The notes under the pieces were generated by a model. That model saw nothing but the letters and a program-made list of their open reading frames with translations, searched no databases and had not been told where the DNA came from. Made by a program: the position numbers and the translations under genes. A stretch of 64,000 bases of DNA, taken from NCBI GenBank assembly GCA_030632085.1, contig DAOVJY010000002.1:248319-312318 (forward strand). The letters are read 5' to 3'. This DNA comes from Candidatus Omnitrophota bacterium. GTDB lineage: Bacteria; Omnitrophota; Gorgyraeia; JAGLLT01. Positions 1,916 through 16,188 of the stretch are shown here, in pieces; the stretch's first letter is position 1, and each line of letters begins with the position of its first letter.

Positions 1916-2066
1916 TTTTCCATATTTATGTTGTAGTTTATAATAAAATATTTGACAAATGATACTACTGGTAGTAACATATAAGAGATAACTAAAACAA
2001 AGTGGTGCGTTCGAAGGGGGAACCTCCACGATAAAATAAGTAAAACCTTCGGAAGCGGAGGTTTTT

Positions 2067-2975: not shown

Positions 2976-3496
2976 AAGAAGGAGGGGTGGGAGGCAGCAA
3001 AACAAAAACTGGTCTCCACTTTGAATCTCGAGTAAGCCTTGAAAAAGTAATCTCCGCACTTCCGGGCTATACCATATCAGATGATAGGGTATTTTTTCAA
3101 GGTGTAAAAGTTGCTGAACTTTATCAAAAGCACAAATTATACAAAAATCTTCTTAAACCCAATCACATAGATTACTCAGTAATTATTTCTAAAAAACTAC
3201 TCCCAGATGAAGCTATATTAATATTAAAAGATAAGACATTATACATAATAGAAATTAAATTTCAAAAGGTTTCAGGGTCTGTTGATGAGAAGCTTCAGAC
3301 CTGCGACTTTAAGTGCAGGGAATATAAAAAACTTCTTGCTCCATTAGGCATATCCGTTGAATATGTATATATATTAAATGATTGGTTTAATAAAAAAGAG
3401 TACAAAAATGTTCTTAATTATGTTAAATCAGTTGGATGTCATTATTTTTTTAATGAAGTGCCGCTAGAATTTCTAAACTTGCCAAAACCTGAATAG
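2972..3496 (+). CDS. Putative cognate Type II restriction endonuclease (small PD-(D/E)xK-like protein)
   Basis: Start overlaps the MTase stop (ATGA coupling). 174 aa with a D...IIEIKFQK segment compatible with a (D/E)xK catalytic motif. No recognisable family, so the specificity is unknown. Confidence 0.4.
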   Translation: MKEGGVGGSKTKTGLHFESRVSLEKVISALPGYTISDDRVFFQGVKVAELYQKHKLYKNLLKPNHIDYSVIISKKLLPDEAILILKDKTLYIIEIKFQKVSGSVDEKLQTCDFKCREYKKLLAPLGISVEYVYILNDWFNKKEYKNVLNYVKSVGCHYFFNEVPLEFLNLPKPE

Positions 3497-3675
3497 TTTA
3501 AAGGGGAACCTTGTATGGTATTGCACCCTTCATTCACCCTTGAAGTAAAACTGATTAAATTAAGTAAAAATCACGAGAAAAATCATAATAGCCTTAGAAG
3601 AATTGTGATTGATTCTTTTGTGAAAGAAAAGCTGGGCATGGCAATGGCGAAAATAGGTGATGATTTTATTTAAAA

Positions 3676-3699
3676 GTAATTAAGTATTGTGTCCCCGGA
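3676..3699 (+). repeat. REP/TIR-like repeat (AATTAAGTATTGTGTCCCCGGAA), copy 1 of a direct pair about 105 bp apart
   Basis: Matches the MITE right terminus TTAAGTGTTCTGTCCCCGGAA with two substitutions. Confidence 0.65.
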
Positions 3700-3756
3700 A
3701 CTATACAGCTTTTCTCGGAGGGATTGTATTCCAGTCCCAATAAAGCAGGAATTAAG

Positions 3757-3800
3757 GGGACGGTTCTATTTTAAAATAATTAAGTATTGTGTCCCCGGAA
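3757..3800 (+). repeat. Composite repeat: GGGGACGGTTCTATTTT block followed by REP/TIR-like AATTAAGTATTGTGTCCCCGGAA (copy 2)
   Basis: The GGGGACGGTTCTATTTT block recurs at 8609 and, degenerate, at 15571. The REP part matches 3676-3699. Confidence 0.65.
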
Positions 3801-3981
3801 TTACGTAAAAAGAAATAAATGTGGAATGTGGAGACTTGACCCCCATTGTGCTCTATTTTACTGATTTGTGATTCATGATAAGAAATATGGAAAATTTTCT
3901 TTCTTTCCATCTTATAAGAAACACTTGACAAATTGCATCATTTAATGTATAAGAGAAAGAAGAAAGTGAGGTGTTCAAATA

Positions 3982-4872
3982 ATGGAAGATAAAGACCAGA
4001 TAAAAGGATTTTTTGTCGAAGATGAACAATCATTCAAAAAAGAACAAGTCTTATCTTTAATTAACAGATGTAAAAAATATGCCAAACTTGTAGGTAGAAA
4101 AGGGCTTGTTCATATTGAAAAGAAAAATTTAACAGGCACAGACCAAATAAAGCTTTTTTTAATAACACGGCATTTGGGTGCAGACTTGGCAAAGTTAGAG
4201 CCTAATTTAAAGATTCCTTCTGAGATTGCAGATGTGCATACTTCTGAAATGGCAAAATTGTTATCTGTCTCTAATGAAAATGCTAGGACTAGAGCATCTG
4301 ATTTAATTCGTGATGGATTTGGACGTAAACCAAAAAAAGGATACATACGAGTATATTCATATCAAATTAGTAAATTTTTAGATTTACTTGAAAAAGGTGA
4401 ACAAAAAAAGGAAAGAGCCGCCAATAAAAAAACTTCCATTAAAAAAAGAGGGGTAAGAAAAATAATTGAAAATCCGAAGCTCAATGTTGACCAAGCGTTT
4501 AAGCGATTGTCTATAAATTTAGATGGTATTTTAGAAAAAAAACTTAAAGATTGTATTTTTTTCCAAGAAGATGCAAGCTTTAAATTTAATAAGAATTTTA
4601 CGGGGAAATCAAAACATAGTAAACAGACTAGAGGAATTCTATGCGCAGCCTATGTAATGTCTATTGGTTTAGGTTTACAGAGTTTTTCTAGCCGACAGAT
4701 AAAGGATGTTTGTTTTAATAGTAACATTGATGTAATGGGCTTGAATTATGCAACACGAGAATTAAAGAAGAGTGGATATATTTCTAAAGCGAGTAAATAC
4801 TCGCAAGATAATATAATCCTAGAAAAAGGTAAAGATAAGGCAAAAGAGATATTTAATGAGTTATGTGAATGA
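3982..4872 (+). CDS. Hypothetical protein: probable central winged-HTH (SEIADVHTSEMAKLLSVSNENARTRASDLIRDGF), lysine-rich linker, unknown C-terminal domain
   Basis: Long ORF with an AAAGTGAGG RBS. First gene of a three-gene operon bounded by REP copies upstream and a MITE downstream. Confidence 0.55.
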   Translation: MEDKDQIKGFFVEDEQSFKKEQVLSLINRCKKYAKLVGRKGLVHIEKKNLTGTDQIKLFLITRHLGADLAKLEPNLKIPSEIADVHTSEMAKLLSVSNENARTRASDLIRDGFGRKPKKGYIRVYSYQISKFLDLLEKGEQKKERAANKKTSIKKRGVRKIIENPKLNVDQAFKRLSINLDGILEKKLKDCIFFQEDASFKFNKNFTGKSKHSKQTRGILCAAYVMSIGLGLQSFSSRQIKDVCFNSNIDVMGLNYATRELKKSGYISKASKYSQDNIILEKGKDKAKEIFNELCE

Positions 4873-4954
4873 TTAAAATGAAATTATTGTAATTAAATTT
4901 ATCTAAGAGATTGATGGCATATATTTATTAAGACGATGTCCAAAAGGAGGAAAT

Positions 4955-5524
4955 GTGAAAAATATTACTGAAATCGATGTGATGAAAATTATTGATGACC
5001 ATTTTTCAAAAATACAAGATCGAGAGGCAAAGAATAGGATTCTTCGTTGGGCATGGGAGAAATTCTCAACTCAAGAGCTGCCCTTAGAAAGTGAAGAAAA
5101 AACCAAACAGAAAGATTCTAAAAAGAAAAAAGCACCTAAGAAAAATAATAAACAAAAGAAAAAAGTTAAATCTGGTCCTTGTTTAGTTAAAGATTTAAAC
5201 TTGAGGCCTTCAGGGGAAACAACTTTTAAGCAATTTGTACAAGACAAAAACCCTTCATCAAACCAAGAGAAATGCTTAGTAGCTGCTTATTATTTAAAGC
5301 AAAAACTAAAGAAAAAGACAGATGTCGATTCGATTTATACATGTTTTAAGGATGCGAAATGGCGAGTTCCATCTAATTTGGAAAATACACTTTGTGTTGT
5401 TGCCGTCCAAAAAGGTTGGCTTGATACAACTGACTCTAACGCCATAACAATACCAACCTTAGGTGAAAATTATATAGAACATGATTTGCCCAGAAAAGTA
5501 AAAGGAAAAAATAATCATGGTTAA
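4955..5524 (+). CDS. Hypothetical protein with a long poly-lysine linker (KKKKAPKKNNKQKKKVK) between two small domains
   Basis: ORF with a GGAGG RBS. Overlaps the next gene by 8 nt. Confidence 0.5.
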   Translation: MKNITEIDVMKIIDDHFSKIQDREAKNRILRWAWEKFSTQELPLESEEKTKQKDSKKKKAPKKNNKQKKKVKSGPCLVKDLNLRPSGETTFKQFVQDKNPSSNQEKCLVAAYYLKQKLKKKTDVDSIYTCFKDAKWRVPSNLENTLCVVAVQKGWLDTTDSNAITIPTLGENYIEHDLPRKVKGKNNHG

Positions 5525-6296
5525 AAATGCTTTCAATTTAACAAATTTACTTGGCAGTATTCCAGTTACATTAAAAAATGAATTGGTAAAAACTTTTAAT
5601 GAAATTGCACGAAATTATCGAGAACAACGCTGGGAACCATCGGAGTTAAATGGAGGTAAATATTGTGAGGTTGTTTACACCATTTTAAAAGGGTATACTG
5701 AGGGAAAATTTCCTTCAAAAGCAAGCAAACCGAAGAATATGGTAGATGCTTGCAATAAATTTGAGCAAATTCCTTCATCATCATTTCCGAGGTCAGTAAG
5801 GATTCAAATTCCTAGAATAATCATTGCTCTTTATGAAATACGTAACAATAGAGGCGTGGGGCACGTTGGTGGCGATGTTGACCCAAATCATATGGATGCT
5901 ACAATTGTGCTTTATATGGTTAAATGGATTATGGCTGAGTTGATCCGTTTATTTCATAATGTTAACACTGATATTGCAACTGAAGCAGTAGAACGAATTA
6001 CAGATAGGACTTTGCCTATTTTATGGAAAGTTGGCGGAAAAATTCGTGTGCTTGATACTTCTATTAACATGACAGAAAAGACACTAGTTGTTTTATATTA
6101 TAATCGAGATTCAGTCGCCGAAAATTTATTGGTTGATTGGGTAGAATACACAAATCTTTCTGTATACTGTAGAGACATTTTGCGGAAAGCCCATAAAAAT
6201 AAATTAATTGAATATGATAAAGCAAATAAACAAGTCACAATATCTCCCAAAGGCATAAAATACGTAGAAGATAATATAAATTTGGAAAAATTTTGA
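5517..6296 (+). CDS. Hypothetical protein with a possible HEPN-like R-x6-H motif (IRNNRGVGHVGG)
   Basis: The Rx4-6H spacing matches the HEPN RNase catalytic motif. Located in a defence island. No further homology recognised. Confidence 0.4.
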   Translation: MVKNAFNLTNLLGSIPVTLKNELVKTFNEIARNYREQRWEPSELNGGKYCEVVYTILKGYTEGKFPSKASKPKNMVDACNKFEQIPSSSFPRSVRIQIPRIIIALYEIRNNRGVGHVGGDVDPNHMDATIVLYMVKWIMAELIRLFHNVNTDIATEAVERITDRTLPILWKVGGKIRVLDTSINMTEKTLVVLYYNRDSVAENLLVDWVEYTNLSVYCRDILRKAHKNKLIEYDKANKQVTISPKGIKYVEDNINLEKF

Positions 6297-6391
6297 CCTT
6301 CATGGCCGATTTAAAATGTTATACATGATTATAGAAAAGGATTTGTTTCCTTTTATATTCTTAAAAAAAGTTCTAAATATACTTCCGGCAT

Positions 6392-6720
6392 ACTTCCGGG
6401 GACAGAACACTTAATTGTTGAAAAGGCGTCATTGTTCTGATAGAATCTATGTATGGCAAGGATAGCGAGAATAGTTATTCCCAATCACCCTCATCATATA
6501 ATCCATCGCGGTAATCGCCGGGAAAAAGTTTTCTTTAGTGAAGACGACAAACAGGCTTACCTTTGTTTATTAACTAATCAGGCCAAGAAATCGGGAATAG
6601 AATTTTCTTTAGGGGATGAGAGATTTATTAAGAAGATTGAAGGAATTACCGGAAAGATATTGCAAAAAAATAGGCCGGGACATATGCAGAAAGATAGTTA
6701 AGTGTTCTGTCCCCCGAAGT
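6392..6720 (+). mobile_element. MITE-like element (about 320 bp) with about 23-bp terminal inverted repeats (ACTTCSGGGGACAGAACACTTAA) enclosing a 5'-truncated RAYT/IS200-like transposase remnant
   Basis: Left IR at 6392-6414 and right IR at 6698-6720 are reverse complements. The interior is 90% identical to the element at 10873-11198. Confidence 0.75.
6453..6701 (+). pseudogene. N-terminal fragment (82 aa) of a REP-associated tyrosine transposase (RAYT, IS200/IS605 Y1 family)
   Basis: MARIARIVIPNHPHHIIHRGNRREKVFF..DDK..YL.LL matches the RAYT N-terminus. It terminates long before the HuH/Y catalytic motifs. Confidence 0.7.
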
Positions 6721-6765
6721 CTATTGACTCACTGGAAGATAATTTGATAGTGGAGGATTCGGAAA

Positions 6766-7410
6766 ATGAGTGAGACTATACCTAAAGATCCCAAGATTTA
6801 TCATATTGTACATCTTGATAGATTGGAGTCGATTATTTCTAAACAGTATTTGTTAAGTGATACAGATGGTCAGCAATACGATTTGGACGGTACTACTATA
6901 GGAATGTCGAAAATAAAAGAACGAAGAATGTATAATAATTTTATGAATTATCCAGATCTTTGCGTAGGTGCATGTGTTCCTTTTTATTTTTGTCCACGAT
7001 CGATTATGTTATACATATTTTACGAGAATAATCATCCGGAGATTACGTATCGAGGAGGGCAGGAACCTATTGTTCATTTGGTAGCGGATTTACGTAAAAC
7101 AGTTACGTGGGCGGAATCTTTGGGCAAGCGCTGGGTATTTACTGATTCGAATGCAGGGTCATCCTATTTTAACGATTTTGCAAAATTAAACCAACTTAAT
7201 CAAATTGACTGGAACGCGTTAAGAGCAACATCTTGGTCAGCGGTTAAAGAAAAGAAGCAAGCCGAGTTTTTGATCGAAGAATGCTTTCCTTGGGAATTGA
7301 TAGAATGTATCGGTGTATATTCAATAGTGCAGTACCAACAGGTTGCTCAAGCACTCCAATCAGCAACACATCGACCACCCGTGAAGGTGATGCGTACCTG
7401 GTATTATTAG
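6766..7410 (+). CDS. darT: DarT, DNA ADP-ribosyltransferase toxin (DUF4433)
   Basis: IYHIVHLDRLESII...VPFYFCPRSIMLY...GGQEPIVHLV...FTDSN...EFLIEECFPWELIECIGVYS closely matches the DarT family. Confidence 0.85.
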   Translation: MSETIPKDPKIYHIVHLDRLESIISKQYLLSDTDGQQYDLDGTTIGMSKIKERRMYNNFMNYPDLCVGACVPFYFCPRSIMLYIFYENNHPEITYRGGQEPIVHLVADLRKTVTWAESLGKRWVFTDSNAGSSYFNDFAKLNQLNQIDWNALRATSWSAVKEKKQAEFLIEECFPWELIECIGVYSIVQYQQVAQALQSATHRPPVKVMRTWYY

Positions 7411-7425
7411 AAGGAGGAATGAAAT

Positions 7426-8484
7426 ATGATTATATTTAAAACAGGTAATCTTTTGACCGAAGACGTAGAAGCAATTGTTAATACAGTTAATTGTGTTGGT
7501 ATTATGGGACGAGGAATTGCGCTTCAGTTCAAAAAAAGGTTCCCGGAAAATTTTAAAGTATACGCAGCAGCCTGTAAAAAAAAGGCGATTCTTCCCGGTA
7601 AAATGTTTGTTTATAAGACTGACTCACTTATAAATCCAAAGTATATAATCAGTTTCCCTACAAAGCGGCATTGGCGTGGAGCCAGCAGAATGGAAGATAT
7701 TGAGAATGGTTTGCAGGATTTGGTTAAAGTCATTAAAGATTTGAAGATTCAATCCATCGCCCTACCTCCGCTAGGGTGTGGGCTTGGGGGCCTTGATTGG
7801 AATACGGTACGCGTACGGATTGAATTTGTCCTGAATGAGTTGCGCGATGTCGATGTTGTTGTTTTTGAGCCAAAAGGGGCTCCGACTCCTGAAGAGATGG
7901 TAAAAAACAGGAAAGTACCTAAAATGACTCCTGGGCGCGCAGCATTGGTAGAACTGATGCATCGTTATTTTTTAGGGCTTCTTGATCCCTTTATAACGCT
8001 CCTGGAAGTACACAAATTGATGTATTTCCTTCAAGAAAGCGGAGAGAGCCTTCGTTTACAGTACGCAAAAGCACCATATGGTCCATATGCGAAAAATCTT
8101 CGCCATGTGCTCAATGCTATAGAAGGCCATCTCATTTTTGGTTACGCCGACGGAGAAGATAAGCCGGATAAGCAACTCAAGCTGGTGCCTGGTGCTTATG
8201 AAGATGCGACACGGTTTCTTAATGAGCACAAAGGAACTAAGGAACATTATGACAAAGTATCTGATCTTGTAGACGGATTTGAGACTCCTTTTGGTATGGA
8301 ATTATTATCAACAGTGCATTGGGTAATAACAAAAGAATCAGCACATTCTTTTAGTGAACTTATTACGAAGGTATATGATTGGAATAAGCGCAAGAAGCAG
8401 TTTTCTCAGCGACAGATTCAATTAGCCGTCAAGGTGTTAGAGCAAAAAAAATGGATTAATATTACGAATTGGAGTGAAGTTTAA
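7426..8484 (+). CDS. darG: DarG antitoxin: N-terminal macrodomain (ADP-ribosylglycohydrolase) plus C-terminal DarT-neutralising domain
   Basis: AIVNTVNCVGIMGRGIALQFKKRFPE is a macrodomain signature. Sits immediately downstream of darT. Confidence 0.85.
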   Translation: MIIFKTGNLLTEDVEAIVNTVNCVGIMGRGIALQFKKRFPENFKVYAAACKKKAILPGKMFVYKTDSLINPKYIISFPTKRHWRGASRMEDIENGLQDLVKVIKDLKIQSIALPPLGCGLGGLDWNTVRVRIEFVLNELRDVDVVVFEPKGAPTPEEMVKNRKVPKMTPGRAALVELMHRYFLGLLDPFITLLEVHKLMYFLQESGESLRLQYAKAPYGPYAKNLRHVLNAIEGHLIFGYADGEDKPDKQLKLVPGAYEDATRFLNEHKGTKEHYDKVSDLVDGFETPFGMELLSTVHWVITKESAHSFSELITKVYDWNKRKKQFSQRQIQLAVKVLEQKKWINITNWSEV

Positions 8485-8580
8485 TGAATTTTAGTGATAT
8501 AACTGAAAAAGGGCTTGAGACAATTATCGTCGAGTCCCTGATAAACGATGCCGTTTATGTTCAGGGCAATAGTGTTTAAT
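8485..8580 (+). pseudogene. 31-codon ORF (MNFSDITEKGLETIIVESLINDAVYVQGNSV*) resembling the N-terminus of restriction-enzyme/helicase subunits; likely a gene remnant
   Basis: Starts on the darG stop. The E..ii..L.....GY pattern is typical of restriction R-subunit/helicase N-termini. Truncated at a REP-like CTTCCGGGTG tandem. Confidence 0.3.
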
Positions 8581-8608
8581 ACTTCCGGGTGCTTCCGGGT
8601 GAGGAAAA

Positions 8609-8645
8609 GGGGACGGTTCTATTTTTTAAAAAAATTGGCAGGAAA
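8609..8645 (+). repeat. Intergenic repeat GGGGACGGTTCTATTTTTTAAAAAAATTGGCAGGAA
   Basis: Recurs at 15571-15636 (with a short insertion) and partially at 3757-3773. Confidence 0.6.
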
Positions 8646-8682
8646 TGCCTTTTGTCCGATAGAAAAAAAGGAGAGTGGCATT

Positions 8683-9048
8683 ATGGTTATATTGGTTAAA
8701 TCGTTTGGTATTCTCATGGTAGCCCTTGGAGCTATTTTCCTGGCCAGGCCGGCTGGGATGAAAAACTACATAGCTTTCTGGGTGAAAGGAAAGAGGATTT
8801 ACACAGGCGCTGCTTTAAGTCTTATAATAGGTATTATCTTTTTGCTTGCCGCTTCAGGATGCAAGGTCGGTTGGTTTGTAGCGGTATTTGGCGTTCTGGC
8901 GTTTATCAAAGGCATTGCGCTGTTTGTCCTTGGACAGAAAAAGATAATGTCCATGATGAAGTGGTGGCAGGGAAGGTCGCTTTCATTTCTACGCTTCCAT
9001 GCCCTTTTAGCCTTAGCCGCCGGCGCCCTGCTTATCTACGCTGCATAA
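8683..9048 (+). CDS. Small integral membrane protein (about 4 TM helices)
   Basis: Hydrophobic segments. AAAGGAGAG RBS 7 nt upstream of the ATG at 8683, so the ORF-track start at 8548 is unlikely. Confidence 0.5.
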   Translation: MVILVKSFGILMVALGAIFLARPAGMKNYIAFWVKGKRIYTGAALSLIIGIIFLLAASGCKVGWFVAVFGVLAFIKGIALFVLGQKKIMSMMKWWQGRSLSFLRFHALLALAAGALLIYAA

Positions 9049-9071
9049 ATATGCAATTCAGGACAAATTCA

Positions 9072-9090
9072 GGGGACACAATATTTAATT
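9072..9090 (-). repeat. REP/TIR-like repeat in inverted orientation (GGGGACACAATATTTAATT)
   Basis: Reverse complement matches AATTAAATATTGTGTCCCC. Confidence 0.55.
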
Positions 9091-9209
9091 ATTGACTTTT
9101 CAAATAGATAAGTATTGCGAGTGGGGGGAGTCCTGAGTATTTTTGAAGGGCATACCTAAATTTTTGTAAGTCCCAAAATGATGCGTTTCTAATTTTTTAA
9201 GGATGGAGT

Positions 9210-9482
9210 ATGGAGAAGGATTTAATAAATATAAAAGCAAGTGAAATTGCCGACTTTGAGTATTGTGAAGTTAGCTGGAGTTTTTCTAATATGCAACAGG
9301 GCGATGTTCAGATAGCTAACTTAAAAAAGGACTTTGCCAAGGGGAGTGTTGCTCATCAAGAACATATTCGAGCAGAAGAGGCGCTAAGTCAACTTATTCG
9401 TTATAAGAATCATGCTAAAGTTATCTTTATTCTATTTGCTTTAGGATTCCTAGTCTATTTACTTTACTTAGTGTGGAGATAA
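9210..9482 (+). CDS. Cas4/RecB-like nuclease, N-terminal half (first Fe-S cysteine, motif I region) ending in a TM helix
   Basis: ASEIADFEYCEVSWSF matches the Cas4 N-terminal S..l..f.yC motif, followed by KGSVAHQEHI (G..H). C-terminal hydrophobic helix FILFALGFLVYLLYLVW. Confidence 0.6.
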   Translation: MEKDLINIKASEIADFEYCEVSWSFSNMQQGDVQIANLKKDFAKGSVAHQEHIRAEEALSQLIRYKNHAKVIFILFALGFLVYLLYLVWR

Positions 9483-9483
9483 G

Positions 9484-10005
9484 ATGTCCATTGTGTTGAC
9501 AATTCTAATATTAGGTTGTTGCGCGCTTTTTTTATATATCTTAATTAAATCATTAATTAACGATAGAAATATAATCTATGTTGGCGATAAGAACAAAGTT
9601 TTAGTATATAATGAGGGAGATATAAGGATTATTGGAAGACCCGATTATATAAAAAGGGAAGAGAATAATTATGTCGCATACGAATATAAGAGCCTAAAAA
9701 TAAAATCCAAAAATGCCTATTTGGATCATAAGTTGCAATTAGCGTGCTATATGCGACTGGTAGAAAAGACCTTTAAACAGAAGCCTGATTATGGAATAAT
9801 TACTTATGGAAACAAGAGAAGATTTAAAATTAGTAATACTTTGGAACTACAGCAGAAATTGGATAAGAGAATCGACAGGCTTAAAGAGCTAAAAACTGGA
9901 AGAGCCGTGCCTGTTAGAAGCCATAATGTGTTTGAGAAATGCTTTGCTTGTAAGTATTATCCTATCTGTAAACACCGATTAGGGAAAAAGAAAATGGAGG
10001 GTTAA
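9484..10005 (+). CDS. Cas4/RecB-like PD-(D/E)xK nuclease, C-terminal half: TM helix, motif II (GRPDYI), motif III (EYK), QhxxY (QLACY), and a C-x2-C-x5-C cluster
   Basis: The motif order and the CFACKYYPIC spacing match the Cas4 4Fe-4S/DUF83 family. Starts 1 nt after the upstream stop, in a different frame. Confidence 0.65.
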   Translation: MSIVLTILILGCCALFLYILIKSLINDRNIIYVGDKNKVLVYNEGDIRIIGRPDYIKREENNYVAYEYKSLKIKSKNAYLDHKLQLACYMRLVEKTFKQKPDYGIITYGNKRRFKISNTLELQQKLDKRIDRLKELKTGRAVPVRSHNVFEKCFACKYYPICKHRLGKKKMEG

Positions 10006-10006
10006 A

Positions 10007-10405
10007 GTGATAATACCAAATGAAGTAAAAAATTTATTTGATAAACAGTCTTTAGTTGCCTTTGGCACCGCGGACAAGCAAGGAAATCCAAATGTTGTTC
10101 CTATATTCTGGAAAGAGATCATCGATGGGGAAAGAATTTTGTTAATCGATAATTTTATGAAGATGACCAAAAAAAACCTTTTAGAAAATGGCAATGTTTG
10201 CCTGGCTTTTTGGGATTCAAAAACAAATGAGGCTTATAAGATTGAGGGGGAAGCTGTCTACTATGCACAAGGTTCGATTTATGAACAAGGCAAAAAATTT
10301 ATACAATCAAAAAAACCAGCAGCAATTCCAAAAGGAGTTGTTGAAATTAAAGTAAAAGAAATTTACACTATAAAACCGGGTTCCGACGCGGGTAAAAGAT
10401 TATAA
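10007..10405 (+). CDS. Pyridoxamine 5'-phosphate oxidase-like FMN-binding split-barrel protein
   Basis: LVAFGTADKQGNPNVVPIFW...ERILLIDNFM..TKKNLLENGNV is typical of the PNPOx-like family. Confidence 0.55.
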   Translation: MIIPNEVKNLFDKQSLVAFGTADKQGNPNVVPIFWKEIIDGERILLIDNFMKMTKKNLLENGNVCLAFWDSKTNEAYKIEGEAVYYAQGSIYEQGKKFIQSKKPAAIPKGVVEIKVKEIYTIKPGSDAGKRL

Positions 10406-10449
10406 AAAGCGGTCACCTTTTTCATTGAGAAGATAAGAGAAAATTAGTA

Positions 10450-10481
10450 GAAAGATAGTTAAGTGTTCTGTCCCCTGAAGT
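10450..10481 (+). repeat. Solo MITE right end (AAAGATAGTTAAGTGTTCTGTCCCCTGAAGTC)
   Basis: 31 of 32 identity to the MITE right end at 6689-6720, with no partner left end nearby. Confidence 0.7.
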
Positions 10482-10494
10482 CTTACAATTCAGT

Positions 10495-10523
10495 TGCTTT
10501 TTTGGCTAATTTTTGGTATAAAT
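10495..10523 (+). promoter_or_regulatory. Conserved strong sigma70 promoter cassette, copy 1: TTGCTT, 17 bp, TGgTATAAAT
   Basis: Near-identical 45-nt block repeated at 17546, 18433 and 20813. Confidence 0.6.
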
Positions 10524-10684
10524 GGGGACATTGGACAGGTTGTATTTTAATGTGGGTAGATATTAAAGCAGTATGGCATTGTGGATGTGAAGAGTATATA
10601 ATTATGGAAGAATATAGAAATATAATAAAGACTCAAATAGAGCTTGCTTTTAATAGGGCAGTAGTGTATATTGTAAATAGCAAA

Positions 10685-10732
10685 CCCGCCGAGCCTCTGC
10701 TTAGCATGCTTAATTTCGGCGGGTATTTTTTT
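10685..10732 (+). terminator. Rho-independent terminator (CCCGCCGAG...TTCGGCGGG followed by T8)
   Basis: GC-rich 8-9 bp stem plus a U-tract, read directly. Confidence 0.65.
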
Positions 10733-10750
10733 GCATACAGAAGGGGGTGC

Positions 10751-10900
10751 TATGGAATATAAAAAGCATCCCCTTACTTATGCGGAACAAGCCGATCTCC
10801 TCATTTCACGCAAACTATCCGCTGACCGTAATGCTCTCATTGAAACGCTTAAAAATGTTAATTATTATCGGAGTTCCGGGGACAGAACACTTAATTATTG
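10751..10900 (+). pseudogene. N-terminal 49-codon fragment of an Abi_2-family (AbiD/AbiF-like) abortive-infection gene, truncated by MITE insertion
   Basis: MEYKKHPLTYAEQADLLISRKLSADRNALIETLKNVNYYRSSG matches the Abi_2 N-terminus (LT.EEQ..LL..RGL....YYRLSGY). The reading frame runs straight into the MITE left IR at 10873. Confidence 0.5.
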
Positions 10901-11198
10901 AAAAGGTGTTGTTGCTTTGATAAAATCTATGTATGACAAGGATAGCGAGAATAGTTGCTTCCAATCACCCCAATCATATAATCCATCGCGGCAATCGCCG
11001 GGAAAAAGTTTTCTTTAATAAAGATGACAAACAGGTGTATCTTCGTGTATTAACTAATCAGGCCAAGAAATCGGGAATAGAATTTTCTTTAGGGGATGAG
11101 AGGTTTATTAAGAAGATTGAAGGAATTACCGGAAAGATATTGCAAAAAAATAGGCCGGGACCTATGCGGAAAGATAGTTAAGTGTTCTGTCCCCGGAA
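10873..11198 (+). mobile_element. Second copy of the RAYT-derived MITE, with terminal inverted repeats
   Basis: About 90% identical to 6392-6720. IRs GGGGACAGAACACTTAA / TTAAGTGTTCTGTCCCC. Confidence 0.75.
10933..11181 (+). pseudogene. RAYT/IS200-like transposase N-terminal fragment (82 aa), copy 2
   Basis: MTRIARIVASNHPNHIIHRGNRREKVFF... is identical in architecture to the fragment at 6453-6701. Confidence 0.7.
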
Positions 11199-11565
11199 TC
11201 TTCCGGAATTTTATAGATCCTGGAAGGCCCAAAAAAGGGAGTTGACCTCTTTTTTTCCTTTTTTTTGGTAAATCTGACATCGGAGTAAACTTTATAAAAC
11301 TCCATAGTTTCTTGGCTAGAAATGAAGGATGTAATATTTTCTGCTTGTAGCCTCACAGAAATTAAATACAACCTCCGCTTGATTATCAGTATTTAGTTTC
11401 GTGTGAACAGCACACATTAATATCTCTTGCATATTCCCCCTTTCAGCGTTAAAATACAAATATTGCAAGTAATTTAATTATAGCGTTACTATAATAAAAT
11501 ATCAGCAATATATTATTAGTTACTCAAGGATAAAATATACTCTCAAAAAATATTAAGTTTTTAAG

Positions 11566-11670
11566 AAAAAAACATAGCATATCCCAAGAAACGTTTGCCA
11601 AAGAAATAAAGATAACATATAGCACTCTCATTAAAATTGAAGTGGGTGCAAGCAAAAATCCTATCTTGTA
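11566..11670 (+). pseudogene. Remnant of an XRE-family HTH regulator (..SQETFAKEIKITYSTLIKIEVGASKNPIL*)
   Basis: The helix-turn-helix core (S.E.LA...G.S...I...E.G...P) is present, but there is no start codon and no N-terminal helix. Confidence 0.35.
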
Positions 11671-11751
11671 AATCTTGCAAACTTTCCAGGGAATCGTTAA
11701 TGCGTTGGAGGTAAAAATAGATGAGTTGGCTCGTAAGTAAAGGGATTAACT

Positions 11752-12342
11752 ATGACTAAAACAGATATTTTGCTTATGTTATTATTTTCAGATAGAGCTG
11801 CTCCGATAGTAGGTACAACCCGCTTACAAAAGCTCTTATTTCTGAGCGAACACGAAAGTGAAGTTAAGTGCGATAAGGAATCTTTTAATTTTGAAGCCTA
11901 CAAGTTTGGGCCAGTGTCTAAAACGCTATACGACGATATTGAGTTTTTAGTAAACGTAGGTTTTTTAGAAAAAACTGGAGAGGACGCAAGTATTGATATA
12001 TATTCTTTAGATGACTTAGATAGTATTAATGTTGAAAATTTAATTGAAACTTCAGAAAACGAAAAAGTAGACCTAATTAGCGAAAAGGAAGAAGGAATAT
12101 TTTCAGAAGATGACGATGAGAACAAAGCTACCACAGAAGATGATCTGACAGTTTATAAAATCACAGATAAAGGTATTGGATACCTAAAAGAAAATAATCT
12201 AATAGGAGCAAAAGAAGCCAAAGAAATAGAAAATATAAAAAAGCGCTATGGAAAGAAATCTCTTATTGAATTATTGCGATATGTATATATGAAATATCCA
12301 AAATATACTACTGAGTCAGAAATAAAAGATGAATTATTATGA
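11752..12342 (+). CDS. Panacea-domain (DUF4065, SocA-like) putative antitoxin PanA with an acidic C-terminal extension
   Basis: TTRLQKLLFLSEHE...FEAYKFGPVSKTLYDDI matches the Panacea signature (KLQKLLYyaq...w.yGPv). Confidence 0.65.
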   Translation: MTKTDILLMLLFSDRAAPIVGTTRLQKLLFLSEHESEVKCDKESFNFEAYKFGPVSKTLYDDIEFLVNVGFLEKTGEDASIDIYSLDDLDSINVENLIETSENEKVDLISEKEEGIFSEDDDENKATTEDDLTVYKITDKGIGYLKENNLIGAKEAKEIENIKKRYGKKSLIELLRYVYMKYPKYTTESEIKDELL

Positions 12343-12884
12343 GTAATGGAAATAAAGAATTCAGTAATATTGGATTTATGCTATCTATTTTTGGGCCTAG
12401 TGCTATTTCTGCAATGTTTGCAATAATTACAAAACCACTCACTGAAAAATCAACCTTTGATGCTTTACGTAAAAACTTTCTAGAAACAATACGATTTCGC
12501 ATGGCTGCCGAGATAGCAGTGATGTTGCCTCCAAAGACAGGAAGAACGGTGAATGATGATTATGTTTCAATGTGTAAAACAAAACTAAATGAATATTTCG
12601 CAAATAATTCTGTTTTGTTGGTTGATTTTTTATACTCGGAAAAGTTATATATGTCCTACGGAAAGCTTTTTATTATATTTAAATACGCTATAGTGCTAAT
12701 TCCAGTGGTAGCTATCTTATGCGGCATCATATTGATTATCTATTTTCGTGATACGCTCAGTATAAAAAATTGTGGATTGTTTGTGTTTTTTTCTCTAGTG
12801 TTTGTTTTTGCAACTTGGCTTTTTAAAGAGCGTCGGCGAGATCAATACAGTGATTTATGTTCAAAATATGAAGTGGTTAAATAG
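12339..12884 (+). CDS. Membrane protein (N-terminal soluble part plus 2-3 TM helices); candidate PanT-type toxin partner
   Basis: ATGA start/stop overlap with the Panacea gene. Hydrophobic helices at residues about 108-170. Confidence 0.4.
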   Translation: MSNGNKEFSNIGFMLSIFGPSAISAMFAIITKPLTEKSTFDALRKNFLETIRFRMAAEIAVMLPPKTGRTVNDDYVSMCKTKLNEYFANNSVLLVDFLYSEKLYMSYGKLFIIFKYAIVLIPVVAILCGIILIIYFRDTLSIKNCGLFVFFSLVFVFATWLFKERRRDQYSDLCSKYEVVK

Positions 12885-13310
12885 GTGACTATTAACACTA
12901 AGTCAAATCCTTCTGAAAAAAAGATAGTAGCAGCGGTGGCTAAATTATTGCGGAAAAATGGGTATATAAATCAAAAAACTGAGGCCCAGATCTGTGAAAG
13001 ATTCATTGATTTAGTCTGTTGGGATAAAAGAAAGAAAAAGATTGTTGCTGTAGAGGCAAAGGTAAAGGCCCCATCAAAAGCATTTGAGCAGGCAATGCGA
13101 TATAGATATGTTGCAGATCATGTGTATGTTGCAATATTGAGAAATGGGTGTAATAAGAGAGCGATAGAATTGTCAGATAGAACTGGAATTGGATTAATTT
13201 TCGTAAGACGCGACTCATTAGAACGTTATTATGCAAAGATAGAAATAGAACCTGTCAAGTCTGAGTTAAAAAACGAAAAGCTTGCAAAGTATTTTTTTAG
13301 TGATGTTTAG
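12885..13310 (+). CDS. Hjc/Mrr-like PD-(D/E)xK nuclease-fold protein (141 aa)
   Basis: E...L...GY...FIDLVCW...IVAVEAKVK reproduces the archaeal Holliday-junction resolvase Hjc motif order (E, D, ExK). GTG start abuts the upstream stop. Confidence 0.45.
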   Translation: MTINTKSNPSEKKIVAAVAKLLRKNGYINQKTEAQICERFIDLVCWDKRKKKIVAVEAKVKAPSKAFEQAMRYRYVADHVYVAILRNGCNKRAIELSDRTGIGLIFVRRDSLERYYAKIEIEPVKSELKNEKLAKYFFSDV

Positions 13311-13331
13311 ATTATAGTGTTGGAGGTTGTT

Positions 13332-14744
13332 ATGGAGAAAAGTTTCTTATTAAGAATTGGTTCTAATGCAGAAAAGCAATATGTAAAAAAAATGGGGTCA
13401 CTTTTTTCAGGATTGGTGGTTAGAGCGAACTATTTTGAATCTGCGCCCGGAATGTTAAGTGCATTATTTTTAAAATTTGATTCTTTAAATCCATCAAAAG
13501 GATTTATTATTGATCCCGTCACGTATGTTTTTATGCTTGACTCAAAATATATCAGAAGCTGGCAAAAGATTAATGGGGAGAAATCGGAGGAAAAAATAAG
13601 AAAAGATTTACATATAGATGTTTCAGAAAATGTCCCAAATGAGTGGGTGCGTACAATACAAGATCCTACCGAAAAGCAAAAAAATAAAGTTGAAATCTAT
13701 AATATAAAAAAGGCTTATCGTAAATTAGCAGATTCCTATTTTACTCCTAACATGGCCCATGAAATAGGGAAACGGTCACTTGTCAAGGAAGATTTTAGTG
13801 AGCAAGATATACGTGAATTTGTAATGAAAGTGATCAATTACCAAGTGCAGGCGATTAGTACGCGGTATGATACAGCAAAATATTCCGATTTTAAAGCTAT
13901 TGTTCCACGCCCGCTGATGATACTTTCGCCCTATTTTTTGATAAGAAATCAAAGTGATTTAGACTTTATGGAAAGAATATGGAAGCGATTTGATTCCCAA
14001 TATACCAGAGATGATGGGGCCATTGTAGTACATTGTGCGGCAGAATTTTTTGAGATTAATTATCGGTCAATTTTAGAAGTTGTAGCTAAATTGAGTAAAA
14101 AAAATATTTTTTTGTGGATTAATAAATTTGACGAAAAAAAAGTTTCATCTACTCAACTTGATGGATATATAAAATTTGTAAGCAGTGCATATGATCAGGG
14201 CATAAGTGTAACTAACCTGTATGCGGGGGGATTATCCTCTTTTCTTTTTCCATTTGGTCTTACTGGAATGGTAAATAATATAGGATATGGTTTGCAGCGT
14301 GATGCTGAACCAGTTCAAGGAGGAATACCAACAGCTCAATTTTATATACCTAAATTACATATTCGCGCACAGGTTTTAGCAACTTACGATTTATTAGTAA
14401 AAAATGAATTAGGCGGTACAGCAAAAGACTTTTATCGTAACGTTTGTTCTTGTCCGATATGTAAAAAAGGAATCCGCGAGGAATTAAGCGATTTTATCAG
14501 TTTTTATGGTGAAGCGGATTATCCTAAAAGCAATTCAGAAAGCTCACGAAAGTATCCAACATCAAAAGCATTAAAGCGATGTTTTTTCCATTTTCTTTTT
14601 TCTAGATTGAAAGAATACAAATGGGCGATAAAGGCAAGTAAGCAGGAAGCAATAGATTTGCTAGATAGCGAAATAGCTTTATGGCGTACCGATAAAGATC
14701 ATCTTCAGAGGATGAGAGATGCGTTAGATGCAATAGCAAAATAG
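13332..14744 (+). CDS. Hypothetical 470-aa protein with a CSCPIC (CxCxxC) motif and a downstream His. The start at 13332 follows a GGAGG RBS.
   Basis: Long ORF, last gene of a four-gene operon. The CxCxxC...H spacing resembles the Zn site of TGT/DpdA-like transglycosylases; this is a weak inference. Confidence 0.5.
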   Translation: MEKSFLLRIGSNAEKQYVKKMGSLFSGLVVRANYFESAPGMLSALFLKFDSLNPSKGFIIDPVTYVFMLDSKYIRSWQKINGEKSEEKIRKDLHIDVSENVPNEWVRTIQDPTEKQKNKVEIYNIKKAYRKLADSYFTPNMAHEIGKRSLVKEDFSEQDIREFVMKVINYQVQAISTRYDTAKYSDFKAIVPRPLMILSPYFLIRNQSDLDFMERIWKRFDSQYTRDDGAIVVHCAAEFFEINYRSILEVVAKLSKKNIFLWINKFDEKKVSSTQLDGYIKFVSSAYDQGISVTNLYAGGLSSFLFPFGLTGMVNNIGYGLQRDAEPVQGGIPTAQFYIPKLHIRAQVLATYDLLVKNELGGTAKDFYRNVCSCPICKKGIREELSDFISFYGEADYPKSNSESSRKYPTSKALKRCFFHFLFSRLKEYKWAIKASKQEAIDLLDSEIALWRTDKDHLQRMRDALDAIAK

Positions 14745-14881
14745 ATAAAAGTGGGAAAAGGGGTCAGGGGTCAGAGTCATTTTTCATTCTGGCAGATAAG
14801 TATTGTATTGTTAGATTTTCGCATGTCTCAGATTAATTAGGAAGCGTCCCTATTAAAATGAGAAGAAGAGAGCGGGGCGCA

Positions 14882-14916
14882 GGAAGAAAGAGAAATAAGT
14901 ATTGTGTCCCTAGAAT
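14882..14916 (+). repeat. REP/TIR-like repeat (GGAAGAAAGAGAAATAAGTATTGTGTCCCTAGAA)
   Basis: Matches 1880-1915 and the family consensus. Confidence 0.6.
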
Positions 14917-14973
14917 TTCGCCAAAGAAAAGTTACAGGAAATATTTAATAAAAAACTAGAAAGAAAAAATATA

Positions 14974-15537: not shown

Positions 15538-15570
15538 TAGTAAAAAAATAAAAGAAGGTGGCGAATTAAA

Positions 15571-15636: not shown

Positions 15637-15645
15637 ACACAATAA

Positions 15646-16158: not shown

Positions 16159-16188
16159 TAGCTAAGAGCGTACGAATGGAGATATAGA

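What the first reader, a model, noticed from the sequence alone, without database searches (positions are those of the whole stretch)
6392..11198. Two about 320-bp MITE copies carrying a 5' RAYT fragment, plus a solo end; one copy interrupts an Abi_2 gene
Elements at 6392-6720 and 10873-11198 are about 90% identical, have 23-bp terminal inverted repeats, and encode only the first 82 residues of an IS200/RAYT-type Y1 transposase, with no catalytic HuH/Tyr. They are therefore non-autonomous. A 32-bp solo right end at 10450-10481 marks a third, deleted copy. The Abi_2 N-terminal reading frame at 10751 runs directly into the left IR at 10873, which indicates insertional inactivation. Left flanks share CTTCCGG, a possible target preference.
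Basis: seen in the sequence. Interest (0 to 1): 0.55.

Follow-up and report, generated by a model that had tools for sequence, protein, structure and literature searches.

The report
Two decayed TIRYT transposon copies
Two 325-bp repeats in a bacterial anti-phage gene island are gutted, non-autonomous copies of a known but little-studied mobile element (a tyrosine-transposase gene between terminal inverted repeats, called a TIRtron), so the finding is real but fairly ordinary.

Summary
The repeats are real. Elements at 6392-6720 and 10874-11198 are 92% identical, each has 23-25-bp terminal inverted repeats (TIRs), and their flanks are unrelated. A 35-bp solo right end lies at 10449-10483.

The 82-codon ORF is not "the first 82 residues" of the transposase. 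It is residues 1-51 fused in frame to residues 190-220 of a 220-aa Y1 (HuH) transposase. The deleted part holds the HuH motif and the catalytic tyrosine.

Both copies share the same deletion junction. The gutted element was therefore copied after the deletion, presumably by a transposase supplied in trans. No full-length gene lies in the 64 kb, and no closer master or third copy was found in public data.

The family is already described as TIRYT/"TIRtron" (Di Nocera 2013; Quentin 2018 subclass 2.1). The TIR core GGGGACAG fits its published motif GGGGWSAS.

Copy B abuts the first 40 codons of an AbiD/AbiF-type gene, which has a sub-threshold abiF RNA motif upstream. The rest of that gene is absent, so this is truncation, not simple insertion.

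"CTTCCGG in both left flanks" is wrong. What exists is a short duplication of the TIR tip outside some ends, seen at 13 of 42 ends family-wide and unexplained.

Verdict: new member of a known kind, modest interest.

The parts
6392..6720 (+). Copy A of the internally deleted TIRtron (MITE-like, 329 bp)
   Evidence: 92% identical to copy B without gaps, and the flanks are unrelated.
6392..6414 (+). Left TIR of copy A (ACTTCCGGGGACAGAACACTTAA). The core GGGGACAG fits the published TIRYT motif GGGGWSAS.
   Evidence: Inverted-repeat pair I7, 23 nt, 96% complementary. Motif from PMC3733652.
6418..6446 (+). Sigma-70-like promoter (TTGAAA, 17-nt spacer, TAGAAT with a TG before it) just inside the left TIR. 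Inferred to be the element's own promoter.
   Evidence: Consensus scan, 10 of 12 matches. The same site is present in copy B, and TTGAAA...TAAAAT is present in the full-length L006 element.
6453..6701 (+). 82-codon ORF of copy A. Positions 6453-6605 encode TIRYT residues 1-51 and 6606-6698 encode residues 190-220. The stop codon lies inside the right TIR.
   Evidence: tblastn with full-length relatives. Residues 52-189, which are missing, contain HuH (H60-V-H62) and Y119, aligned to HMH and Y115 of E. coli TnpArep 4ER8.
6698..6720 (+). Right TIR of copy A
   Evidence: pair I7.
10874..11198 (+). Copy B of the same deleted element (boundary accurate to about 2 nt). It has the same deletion junction as copy A.
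   Evidence: The ungapped alignment runs across the junction at 6605/6606, equivalent to 11085/11086. TIR pair I4, 10874-10898/11174-11198, 25 nt, 96%.
10933..11181 (+). 82-codon ORF of copy B (87% identical to the ORF of copy A)
   Evidence: Comparing the two ORFs gives dN/dS 0.49 from 12 nonsynonymous and 6 synonymous changes; too few changes to show constraint.
10898..10926 (+). Promoter-like site of copy B (TTGAAA, 17-nt spacer, TAAAAT)
10449..10483 (+). Solo right end of the same TIR type, a remnant of a 5'-truncated element. It keeps about 10 nt of the 3' coding sequence plus the TIR.
   Evidence: Direct-repeat family D3, 97% identical to the right end of copy A.
9068..9095 (+). Solo left-orientation end of a second TIR type (TTCAGGGGACACAATATTTAATTATTGA), with a tip duplicate AATTCAGG just outside it
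   Evidence: It matches the TIR of a different TIRYT lineage, L033 (AATTCCGGGGACACAATACTTAATTAT).
3678..3701 (+). Solo right-orientation end of the second TIR type
3778..3802 (+). Second solo right-orientation end of the second TIR type, 100 bp from the first
3756..3772 (+). GGGGACGGTTCTATTTT, tentatively a left-type end of a third TIR type. It forms a weak doublet with the end at 3778-3802.
   Evidence: Two exact copies in the window, which is weak on its own: 3 of 100 shuffles do as well. It resembles the L047 TIR and L034.
8581..8625 (+). Two partial type-1 tips (ACTTCCGGG at 8581-8589 and CTTCCGGG at 8592-8599) followed by a second GGGGACGGTTCTATTTT (8609-8625). This block lies directly after a truncated hsdR-like ORF.
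6381..6388 (+). Tip duplicate ACTTCCGG, 11 nt outside the left tip of copy A
11200..11208 (+). Tip duplicate CTTCCGGAA just outside the right end of copy B
10752..10871 (+). First 40 codons of an AbiD/AbiF (Abi_2-type) gene, cut off at the left TIR of copy B
   Evidence: PADLOC AbiD profile positions 2-41 of 277, E=1.7e-5. tblastn with two plasmid Abi proteins covers only their residues 1-44 and 10-45, at window 10752-10880, and finds nothing else in the window. Pfam found nothing.
10685..10724 (+). abiF RNA motif (RF03085) upstream of the Abi fragment. The match is below Rfam's threshold.
   Evidence: 26.5 bits against a gathering score of 37. The full 37-position model is matched and the position is appropriate.

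Best explanation
The two elements are non-autonomous, internally deleted copies of a TIRtron.

WHAT A TIRTRON IS. It is a compact unit of about 720-815 bp. It consists of a 23-25-bp left TIR, a promoter, a 220-aa TIRYT gene, and a right TIR that overlaps the stop codon. TIRYT is a Y1/HuH single-strand DNA transposase related to the REP-associated TnpArep.

WHAT HAPPENED HERE. One deletion removed codons 52-189, which encode the HuH motif and the catalytic tyrosine. It fused the first 51 codons in frame to the last 31. Both TIRs, the promoter-like site and the coding stubs next to each end were kept. That gutted element was then copied to a second site, because both copies carry the identical junction while their flanks are unrelated.

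HOW IT MOST LIKELY WORKS. The copy step most probably used a full-length TIRYT of matching TIR specificity supplied in trans. By analogy with IS200/IS605 and TnpArep enzymes, that enzyme would work on single-stranded DNA, where the two TIRs can pair into a panhandle stem. The copies have since diverged by 8%, and nothing suggests they are active now.

WIDER CONTEXT. The solo right end and the ends of other TIR types are further relics. All of them lie within 3.6-11.2 kb of the window, at gene-cassette borders of an anti-phage island. One element abuts a truncated abi gene, and a block of partial tips plus a tentative third-type end abuts a truncated hsdR-like gene.

SHOWN: the anatomy, the homology, the deletion, the shared junction, the unrelated flanks and the absence of a catalytic core in the window.
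INFERRED: mobilisation in trans, the single-strand mechanism, promoter function and the link between the ends and the deletions.
For: REPEAT STRUCTURE
- Repeats and TIRs.
- Identical junction in both copies: ungapped alignment across it.

ORF COMPOSITION
- tblastn with the 220-aa L006 protein and with P0159 and P0160 hits only residues 1-51 and 190/191-220 in both copies, and finds no other TIRYT coding sequence in the 64 kb.
- P0159 is 86% identical to the N-terminal part of copy A, and P0160 is 84%.

FAMILY ASSIGNMENT
- The deleted stretch holds HuH and Y119, which align to HMH and Y115 of E. coli TnpArep 4ER8.
- Full-length relatives pass Pfam Y1_Tnp (44-52 bits against a cutoff of 23).
- They score far better on NCBIfam REP_Tyr_transpos (62-75 bits) than on IS200 (15-18 bits).
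- TIRs beginning GGGGACAG/GGGACAG flank full-length relatives in L015, L031, L033, L047, L049 and L056, giving units of 720-866 bp.
- The literature defines TIRYT/TIRtron with the TIR motif GGGGWSAS and with single, dimeric and grouped TIR copies (PMC3733652; PMC6006769).

RECURRENT DECAY IN THE FAMILY
- Independent deletion derivatives of the same TIR subfamily that keep both ends exist elsewhere: L041/L042 (about 245 bp) and L027 (about 265 bp).
- Many other fused N-terminal plus C-terminal mini-ORFs exist with different junctions.

SINGLE-STRAND FOLDING
- Left and right TIR pairing dominates the fold of the single strand (z=-4.5 for copy B, -1.6 for copy A).
- A 70-bp inverted doublet of the same TIR in L008 folds as a perfect 23-bp hairpin (z=-9.8).
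Against: - No full-length TIRYT with this TIR was found in the window. Nothing closer than about 85% protein identity turned up in 5.8 billion protein clusters, GTDB representative genomes or JGI metagenomes, so the trans-acting partner is hypothetical.
- Only two copies with this junction exist in all data searched. A single duplication by recombination rather than transposition therefore cannot be excluded.
- No empty site and no target-site signature is available.
- TIRYT transposition has, to my knowledge, never been shown experimentally.
- Single ends do not form hairpins (z about 0). The IS200/REP mechanism, in which the enzyme recognises a hairpin, may therefore not transfer directly.
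- Divergence between the copies is uneven: 14.6% in 6417-6567 against 2% in 6568-6714. This hints at a more complicated history, such as gene conversion or a mosaic.
Confidence: 0.8

Rival explanations
1. The two copies are inert relics that were duplicated by host recombination or gene conversion, for example during rearrangement of the defence island, and not by any transposase. The TIR singles are likewise only debris.
For: - Only two copies exist and they differ by 8%.
- No master copy was found.
- Divergence along the element is uneven.
- The region is a patchwork with truncated genes.
Against: - Similarity ends exactly at the TIR tips on all four sides, which is what a discrete mobile unit produces.
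- Other lineages independently produced deletion derivatives that keep both TIRs. This fits selection for cis-acting ends.
Confidence: 0.15
2. The 82-aa in-frame fusion is a functional small protein, for example a TIR-binding regulator or inhibitor of TIRYT activity. Truncated transposase derivatives play such a role in other IS families (my own knowledge, not tested here).
For: - The ORF is intact in both copies despite 8% divergence, and a conserved promoter-like site lies upstream.
- dN/dS is 0.49.
- Many 72-93-aa N-terminal plus C-terminal fusions exist in other lineages.
Against: - dN/dS rests on only 18 changes; too few to show constraint.
- The fusions have different junctions, so they are independent accidents.
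- At the DNA level, out-of-frame derivatives are at least as common. L031 and L051 are out of frame and L034/35 and L037/38 are frameshifted.
- Only the last 31 residues of the C-terminal extension remain.
- The protein databases are biased towards in-frame cases.
Confidence: 0.05
3. Copies A and B, in direct orientation, are the arms of a 4.8-kb composite element that moves the DarT-DarG module and its neighbours as cargo. More generally, TIR ends serve as cassette junctions for exchange within the defence island.
For: - The direct copies bracket DarTG, a Cas4-like nuclease and a PNPOx-like gene.
- All TIR-type ends in the 64 kb lie within 3.6-11.2 kb, at cassette borders.
- Two genes are truncated exactly at such sequences.
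Against: - The same composite was not found at any other site. The DarT protein cluster has a single member on a single contig.
- The interior holds further solo ends and gene fragments, which looks like piecemeal accretion.
- No mechanism for cargo capture by a Y1 transposase was tested.
Confidence: 0.1
4. The two copies are a segmental duplication with shared flanks.
For: None.
Against: The alignment of both copies with 30-40 bp of flank on each side shows that identity collapses at the TIR tips.
Confidence: 0.01

Closest known systems
TIRtrons / TIRYT (TIR-associated tyrosine transposases; Di Nocera, De Gregorio & Rocco 2013, PMC3733652). These correspond to subclass 2.1 of the Y1 HuH superfamily (Quentin et al. 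2018, PMC6006769).
   Same: - The gene of a RAYT-like Y1 protein lies between long TIRs rather than REP hairpins.
- The TIR motif is GGGGWSAS (here GGGGACAG and GGGGACAC).
- The right TIR overlaps the 3' end of the gene.
- TIRs also occur as singles, dimers and groups.
- The protein is longer than E. coli TnpArep (220 aa against 165 aa) because of a C-terminal extension.
   Different: - In the window the gene is gutted: residues 52-189 are missing.
- The gutted unit exists twice with the same junction. Neither paper, as far as I read them, mentions such derivatives.
- The hosts are uncultured cold-seep bacteria. The closest element relatives are in Omnitrophota and Auribacterota MAGs.
- The similarity of the C-terminal extension to HTH domains, reported by Quentin et al., was not reproduced with single-sequence Pfam scans.
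REPIN-RAYT systems (Bertels & Rainey 2011, PMC3116915; Nunvar 2010, PMC2817692; E. coli TnpArep/REP, PMC3479197)
   Same: - A Y1 HuH protein homologous to TnpArep (4ER8, E=1.3e-6).
- The gene is flanked by inverted copies of a repeat that also occurs elsewhere in the genome.
- Inverted doublets that fold into long hairpins exist in this family (L008).
   Different: - A single repeat unit is not itself a palindrome (no fold).
- There is no GTAG head.
- NCBIfam REP_Tyr_transpos scores stay below the equivalog cutoff (62-75 bits against 80).
- The same TIR core is shared across several phyla, which fits horizontal spread better than the vertical, single-copy inheritance described for REPIN-associated RAYTs (PMC5581495).
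IS200/IS605 insertion sequences and their non-autonomous derivatives (IS608 and ISDra2 paradigm)
   Same: - Membership of the Y1 HuH transposase superfamily (Pfam Y1_Tnp).
- No target-site duplication is visible.
- Non-autonomous derivatives that keep both ends.
   Different: - IS200/IS605 ends are subterminal hairpins without TIRs. Here there are 23-25-bp TIRs and no hairpin at either end.
- NCBIfam IS200 scores are only 15-18 bits against a cutoff of 55.
Classical bacterial MITEs (deletion derivatives of DDE-transposase IS elements)
   Same: - About 325 bp.
- Terminal inverted repeats.
- No functional transposase.
- Origin by internal deletion of an autonomous element.
   Different: - The parent encodes a Y1 HuH enzyme, not a DDE transposase.
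- There is no target-site duplication.
- Copy number is only two.
- An 82-codon ORF is retained.

Membership tests
TIRtron / TIRYT | The gene encodes a Y1 (HuH plus catalytic Tyr) protein homologous to TnpArep | tested here: inconclusive
   The window ORFs keep only residues 1-51 and 190-220, so HuH and Tyr are absent. Pfam on the ORFs is sub-threshold. Their full-length relatives (76-86% identical over the N-terminal part) meet the criterion. The window elements are therefore derivatives, not functional members.
TIRtron / TIRYT | The gene is flanked by long terminal inverted repeats instead of REP hairpins | tested here: met
   TIRs of 23 and 25 nt, 96% complementary. Single ends do not fold. 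TIRs also flank full-length relatives.
TIRtron / TIRYT | The TIR carries the motif GGGGWSAS | tested here: met
   GGGGACAG (type 1) and GGGGACAC (type 2) fit the motif. The tentative type 3, GGGGACGG, does not fit at position 7.
TIRtron / TIRYT (Quentin subclass 2.1) | C-terminal extension with similarity to HTH domains (Bac_DnaA_C, HTH_23, HTH_28) | tested here: inconclusive
   An extension is present: relatives are 220 aa against 165 aa for TnpArep. Single-sequence Pfam scans of four C-terminal regions gave no HTH hit. No profile-profile comparison was run.
REPIN-RAYT | The flanking repeat is a short imperfect palindrome (REP), usually with a GTAG head, that is highly repeated in the genome | tested here: not met
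   Single units have no self-complementarity (z about 0) and no GTAG. Only 5 type-1 ends occur in the 64 kb. The genome-wide count could not be tested.
REPIN-RAYT | The protein matches the NCBIfam REP_Tyr_transpos equivalog model | tested here: not met
   Full-length relatives score 61.7 and 74.8 bits against a cutoff of 80.
IS200/IS605 | Subterminal hairpins at both ends, no TIRs, and a TnpA of the IS200 type | tested here: not met
   TIRs are present and end hairpins are absent. NCBIfam transpos_IS200 scores 15-18 bits against a cutoff of 55.
MITE (in the broad sense: a miniature, non-autonomous element with TIRs) | Short size, TIRs, no functional transposase, more than one copy with unrelated flanks | tested here: met
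MITE (classical) | Target-site duplication, and derivation from a DDE-transposase IS | tested here: not met
   No direct repeat flanks either copy. The parent is a Y1 enzyme.
Abi_2 / AbiD-AbiF (the truncated neighbour) | Match to an Abi_2/AbiD profile over the protein | tested here: inconclusive
   Only the first 40 residues are present. The PADLOC AbiD profile matches at positions 2-41 of 277 with E=1.7e-5. Pfam finds nothing. tblastn with annotated Abi family proteins gives E=2e-7 to 1e-5. An abiF RNA motif lies upstream at 26.5 bits, below the gathering score of 37.

The most novel reading that the evidence does not exclude
TIRYT elements may insert beside, or regenerate, a copy of their own outermost 7-16 nt, and may cause adjacent deletions.

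On this reading, the short tip duplications seen at 13 of 42 ends across several phyla are footprints of the still unknown cleavage and joining chemistry. TIR ends would then act as cassette junctions that remodel defence islands. Here they would have truncated an abi gene and an hsdR gene. They might also let the A-B pair move the DarTG-containing 4.8 kb as a composite unit.
Probability: 0.15. Interest if true: 0.55.

Novelty: new member of a known kind. Interest (0 to 1): 0.3.

Why it matters
TIRYT/TIRtron elements form a large family. The search here found 1852 proteins at E<=1e-20, many annotated only as "transposase". The family has almost no literature, and its mobility has, to my knowledge, never been shown.

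Two copies of one gutted element, with the same deletion junction but unrelated flanks, are circumstantial evidence that TIRtrons can be copied as discrete units without encoding their own enzyme.

Together with relatives from other samples, the family shows a graded series:
- the full element, about 750 bp;
- independent internal-deletion forms of 245-325 bp;
- a 70-bp inverted doublet;
- single TIRs.

This series illustrates how REPIN-like hairpin repeats could arise from a transposase gene's own flanks.

For annotation, the practical message is that the 82-aa "hypothetical proteins" and the truncated abi and hsdR ORFs are decay products. None of this is surprising to a specialist in mobile elements.

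Tried and rejected
- Pfam on the 82-aa ORFs gave only sub-threshold Y1_Tnp matches. NCBIfam gave nothing. The identification rests instead on phmmer and tblastn with full-length relatives.
- A word-indexed protein search with the 40-aa Abi fragment found nothing, as did Pfam and NCBIfam. PADLOC AbiD, tblastn and the abiF RNA motif gave the support.
- The search for a master copy failed. There is none in the window. The closest N-terminal match in JGI metagenomes is 75%, and the closest full-length proteins are 84-86%. Proteins P0003-P0005 come from other samples. The rest of the source assembly could not be read with these tools.
- Hairpins at single ends, as in IS200 or REP elements, were rejected.
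- Segmental duplication was rejected.
- A conserved, functional mini-protein family was rejected as the main reading, because the junctions differ between lineages and out-of-frame derivatives exist.
- Similarity of the C-terminal extension to HTH domains was not detected.
- Rfam found no known RNA inside the elements.
- No clear microhomology is visible at the deletion junction.
- The host phylum could not be determined. Only the sample was traced: RS_11, Site-F cold seep, South China Sea.
- I did not map the family onto the RAYT groups of Bertels et al. 2017.

Full report
OBSERVATION

The region was read directly and scanned for repeats. Two direct copies, 6394-6693 and 10874-11173, align without gaps at 92% identity. 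Over 6394-6718 there are 26 differences in 325 nt.

Each copy ends in inverted repeats: 6392-6414/6698-6720 (23 nt, 96% complementary) and 10874-10898/11174-11198 (25 nt, 96%). An alignment that includes the flanks shows identity collapsing exactly at the repeat tips on all four sides. This is therefore not a segmental duplication.

A 35-nt solo right end at 10449-10483 is 97% identical to the right end of copy A. It includes about 10 nt of internal sequence as well as the inverted repeat.

The 17-nt core GGGGACAGAACACTTAA, allowing up to 3 mismatches, occurs 8 times in the window against 0.08 expected. The extra matches are ends of a second type, with core GGGGACACAATAYTTAA. Two lie in right-end orientation at 3678-3701 and 3778-3802, and one lies in left-end orientation at 9068-9095.

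WHAT THE ORF IS

Each copy holds an 82-codon ORF, at 6453-6701 and 10933-11181. Pfam alone gives only a sub-threshold Y1_Tnp match, 12.7-13.6 bits against a cutoff of 23, covering profile positions 4-43.

An exhaustive phmmer search of 1.84 billion representative proteins gives 2857 hits. The N-terminal 50 residues match the N-termini of proteins of about 220 aa. A full-length relative was recovered in locus L006 (220 aa, named by NCBI "transposase [Candidatus Omnitrophica bacterium]"). tblastn with it, and with closer relatives, hits the window only at residues 1-51 and 190/191-220, in both copies and nowhere else in the 64 kb. P0159 is 86% identical to the N-terminal part of copy A, and P0160 is 84%.

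The ORF is therefore an in-frame fusion left by an internal deletion of codons 52-189. It is not "the first 82 residues".

The deleted part carries the HuH motif (H60-V-H62) and Y119. These align with HMH and Y115 of E. coli TnpArep in structure 4ER8. That Y115 is the catalytic tyrosine is taken from my knowledge of PMC3479197, not re-read here. The elements cannot encode an active enzyme.

Both copies have the same junction, GGAATAGAATTT|TCTTTAGGGGAT. The deletion therefore happened once, and the gutted element was copied afterwards.

The two ORFs differ by 12 nonsynonymous and 6 synonymous changes, giving dN/dS of 0.49. With so few changes this cannot show constraint.

FAMILY

Full-length relatives pass Pfam Y1_Tnp (44-52 bits). 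They score 62-75 bits on NCBIfam REP_Tyr_transpos, below its cutoff of 80, but only 15-18 bits on the IS200 model.

Inverted repeats flank full-length genes in many relatives, giving units of 720-866 bp. Nearly all of these repeats start GGGGACAG. Examples are L015 (25 of 25 nt), L031, L033, L047, L049 and L056. The L033 repeat, AATTCCGGGGACACAATACTTAATTAT, is the second end type seen in the window.

The right repeat overlaps the stop codon. The left repeat is followed by a conserved promoter-like site, TTGAAA, a 17-nt spacer, then TAGAAT or TAAAAT.

This architecture is already published. Di Nocera et al. 2013 named such units TIRtrons and their proteins TIRYTs. They gave the repeat motif GGGGWSAS and noted that the repeats also occur as singles, dimers and groups (PMC3733652). 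Quentin et al. 2018 equate TIRYTs with their subclass 2.1 of the Y1 HuH superfamily, whose members have a C-terminal extension (PMC6006769). GGGGACAG and GGGGACAC both fit GGGGWSAS.

Only these two works in the searchable library mention TIRYT.

Single ends do not fold on their own (z about 0). They are therefore neither REP palindromes nor IS200-type subterminal hairpins. Pairing of the left and right repeats dominates the predicted fold of the single strand (z=-4.5 for copy B and -1.6 for copy A).

DISTRIBUTION AND DECAY SERIES

The exact 17-mer occurs in representative genomes of Omnitrophota, Auribacterota, Planctomycetia, a Desulfobacteraceae MAG and others. By my own arithmetic (about 1.2e12 positions on both strands, divided by 4^17), roughly 70 exact matches to a 17-mer would be expected by chance in that collection; the tool gave no expectation. 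The count of 24 hits therefore proves nothing by itself. However, most hits also share conserved TTCC immediately outside the query, and several share inner sequence or multiple copies, so many of them are true homologues.

The window comes from sample RS_11 of the Site-F cold seep in the South China Sea. The closest DNA relatives carry names of the same style as that project's samples (RS_5, RS_9):
- L012, an Omnitrophota MAG (RS_5_28), is 94.6% identical to the left 168 nt of copy A.
- L007, an Auribacterota MAG (RS_9_21) carrying the 3' two-thirds (residues 58-220) of a longer TIRYT gene that runs off the stored locus, is 93.8% identical to the right 113 nt of copy B. That match starts exactly at the deletion junction.

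No second place with this junction, and no closer master, was found in 5.8 billion protein clusters or in JGI metagenomes.

Other lineages show independent derivatives that keep both ends but have different junctions:
- L041/L042, about 245 bp, and L027, about 265 bp;
- L031, L044/45/48 and L051;
- many fused mini-ORFs of 72-93 aa.

L008 carries a 70-bp inverted doublet of the same repeat that folds as a perfect 23-bp hairpin (z=-9.8).

The family thus shows a series from full element, through deletion derivatives, to REPIN-like doublets and singles.

THE ABI CLAIM AND THE NEIGHBOURHOOD

The frame starting at 10752 gives 40 residues before the left repeat of copy B.
- These residues match the PADLOC AbiD profile at positions 2-41 of 277 (E=1.7e-5).
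- tblastn with two annotated plasmid Abi family proteins covers only their residues 1-44 and 10-45, at 10752-10880, and nothing else in the window.
- A match to the Rfam abiF RNA motif lies 27 nt upstream at 10685-10724. It covers the full model at 26.5 bits, below the gathering score of 37.

The gene identity is therefore supported. However, the remaining 240 or so codons are absent, so this is truncation with loss of the rest rather than a simple insertion.

A parallel case lies at 8484-8579. A 31-codon ORF directly follows DarG. It matches the sequence that follows the DarT-DarG pair inside a type I restriction-modification gene cluster on Synechocystis plasmid pSYSG. It stops at a block of two partial type-1 tips (8581-8599) plus a possible third end type (8609-8625).

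The surrounding 17 kb is a defence and toxin-antitoxin island:
- AbiEi/AbiEii;
- a methylase plus a nuclease;
- DarT/DarG;
- a Cas4-like nuclease;
- a Panacea-domain protein;
- a PLD-like protein.

All repeat ends in the window lie between 3.6 and 11.2 kb.

THE CTTCCGG CLAIM

Only copy A has CTTCCGG outside its left end (6382-6388). Copy B has it outside its right end (11200-11206).

Across the window and the fetched loci, 13 of 42 ends carry an exact copy of the 7-nt tip within 31 nt further out, mostly at a spacing of 10-15 nt. My estimate of the chance expectation, about 25 positions per end divided by 4^7, is roughly 0.06 for all 42 ends.

I have no tested explanation. Possibilities are footprints followed by re-insertion, a target that resembles the tip, or slippage.

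MECHANISM AND VERDICT

Shown:
- the anatomy and the homology;
- a single deletion event;
- two copies with unrelated flanks;
- no catalytic core in the window.

Inferred:
- copying by a TIRYT supplied in trans;
- a single-strand mechanism, by analogy with IS200/IS605 and TnpArep;
- promoter function;
- a causal link between the ends and the deletions.

The main rival is duplication of a dead relic by host recombination. It is supported by the copy number of two, the missing master and the uneven divergence (22 differences in 6417-6567 against 3 in 6568-6714). It fits poorly with the boundaries being exact at the repeat tips.

It belongs to a described family, so I rate it a new member of a known kind with modest interest.

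Noticed in passing
window 6381-6399, 9061-9079, 11191-11208, 8581-8599; loci L006, L007, L012, L015, L017, L019, L033, L035: The outermost 7-16 nt of a TIR are repeated once more just outside the end, usually 10-15 nt away. This occurs at 13 of 42 ends, against roughly 0.06 expected by my own estimate. In several cases the outer partial copy stops exactly after the GGGGACAG/C motif. This may mark the unknown cleavage or target site of TIRYT enzymes.
   Followed up: partly
window 8484-8579: A 31-codon ORF directly after DarG matches the sequence that follows the DarT-DarG pair inside a type I restriction-modification gene cluster on Synechocystis plasmid pSYSG. It looks like the N-terminus of an hsdR-type gene, cut off at a block of partial TIR tips.
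   Followed up: partly
window 3678-3701, 3778-3802, 9068-9095: Three solo ends of a second TIR type (GGGGACACAATAYTTAA). They match the TIR of a different TIRYT lineage (L033, 42% protein identity to the L006 type). The ends at 9068 (left orientation) and 10449 (right orientation, type 1) bracket a small membrane protein gene, a Cas4-like nuclease gene and a PNPOx-like gene.
   Followed up: partly
window 3756-3772 and 8609-8625: Two exact copies of GGGGACGGTTCTATTTT. This may be the end of a third TIR type, since it resembles the L047 TIR and a site in L034. Statistical support on its own is weak.
   Followed up: partly
window 10685-10724: A match to the Rfam abiF RNA motif (RF03085). It covers the full model at 26.5 bits, below the gathering score of 37, and lies 27 nt upstream of the truncated Abi ORF. 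The RNA motif has outlived most of the gene.
   Followed up: yes
window 6417-6714 compared with 10897-11194: Divergence between the two copies is uneven: 22 differences in 6417-6567 (14.6%) but 3 in 6568-6714 (2%). This suggests gene conversion or a mosaic origin. The boundary was chosen after looking at the data, so no formal test applies to it.
   Followed up: partly
window 11534-11737: An XRE-type HTH reading frame (Pfam HTH_3, E=1e-7) interrupted by an in-frame TAA at 11669 and lacking an obvious start codon. It is probably a pseudogene upstream of the Panacea-domain gene at 11752.
   Followed up: partly
window 87-17316: A dense defence and toxin-antitoxin island:
- AbiEi/AbiEii (87-1782);
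- an N6/N4 methylase plus a PD-(D/E)XK nuclease (2067-3496);
- DarT/DarG (6766-8484);
- a stand-alone Cas4-like nuclease (9484-10005);
- a SocA/Panacea-domain protein (11752-12342);
- a small HSDR_N/NucS-like protein (12885-13310);
- a PLD-like protein (16189-17316).
Several neighbouring genes have no family match.
   Followed up: partly
L016:373-500 and L024:7468-7530: In a Planctomycetaceae MAG and an Omnitrophota MAG the same TIR core occurs as head-to-tail tandem arrays, with periods of 51 and 31 bp, rather than as inverted pairs.
   Followed up: no
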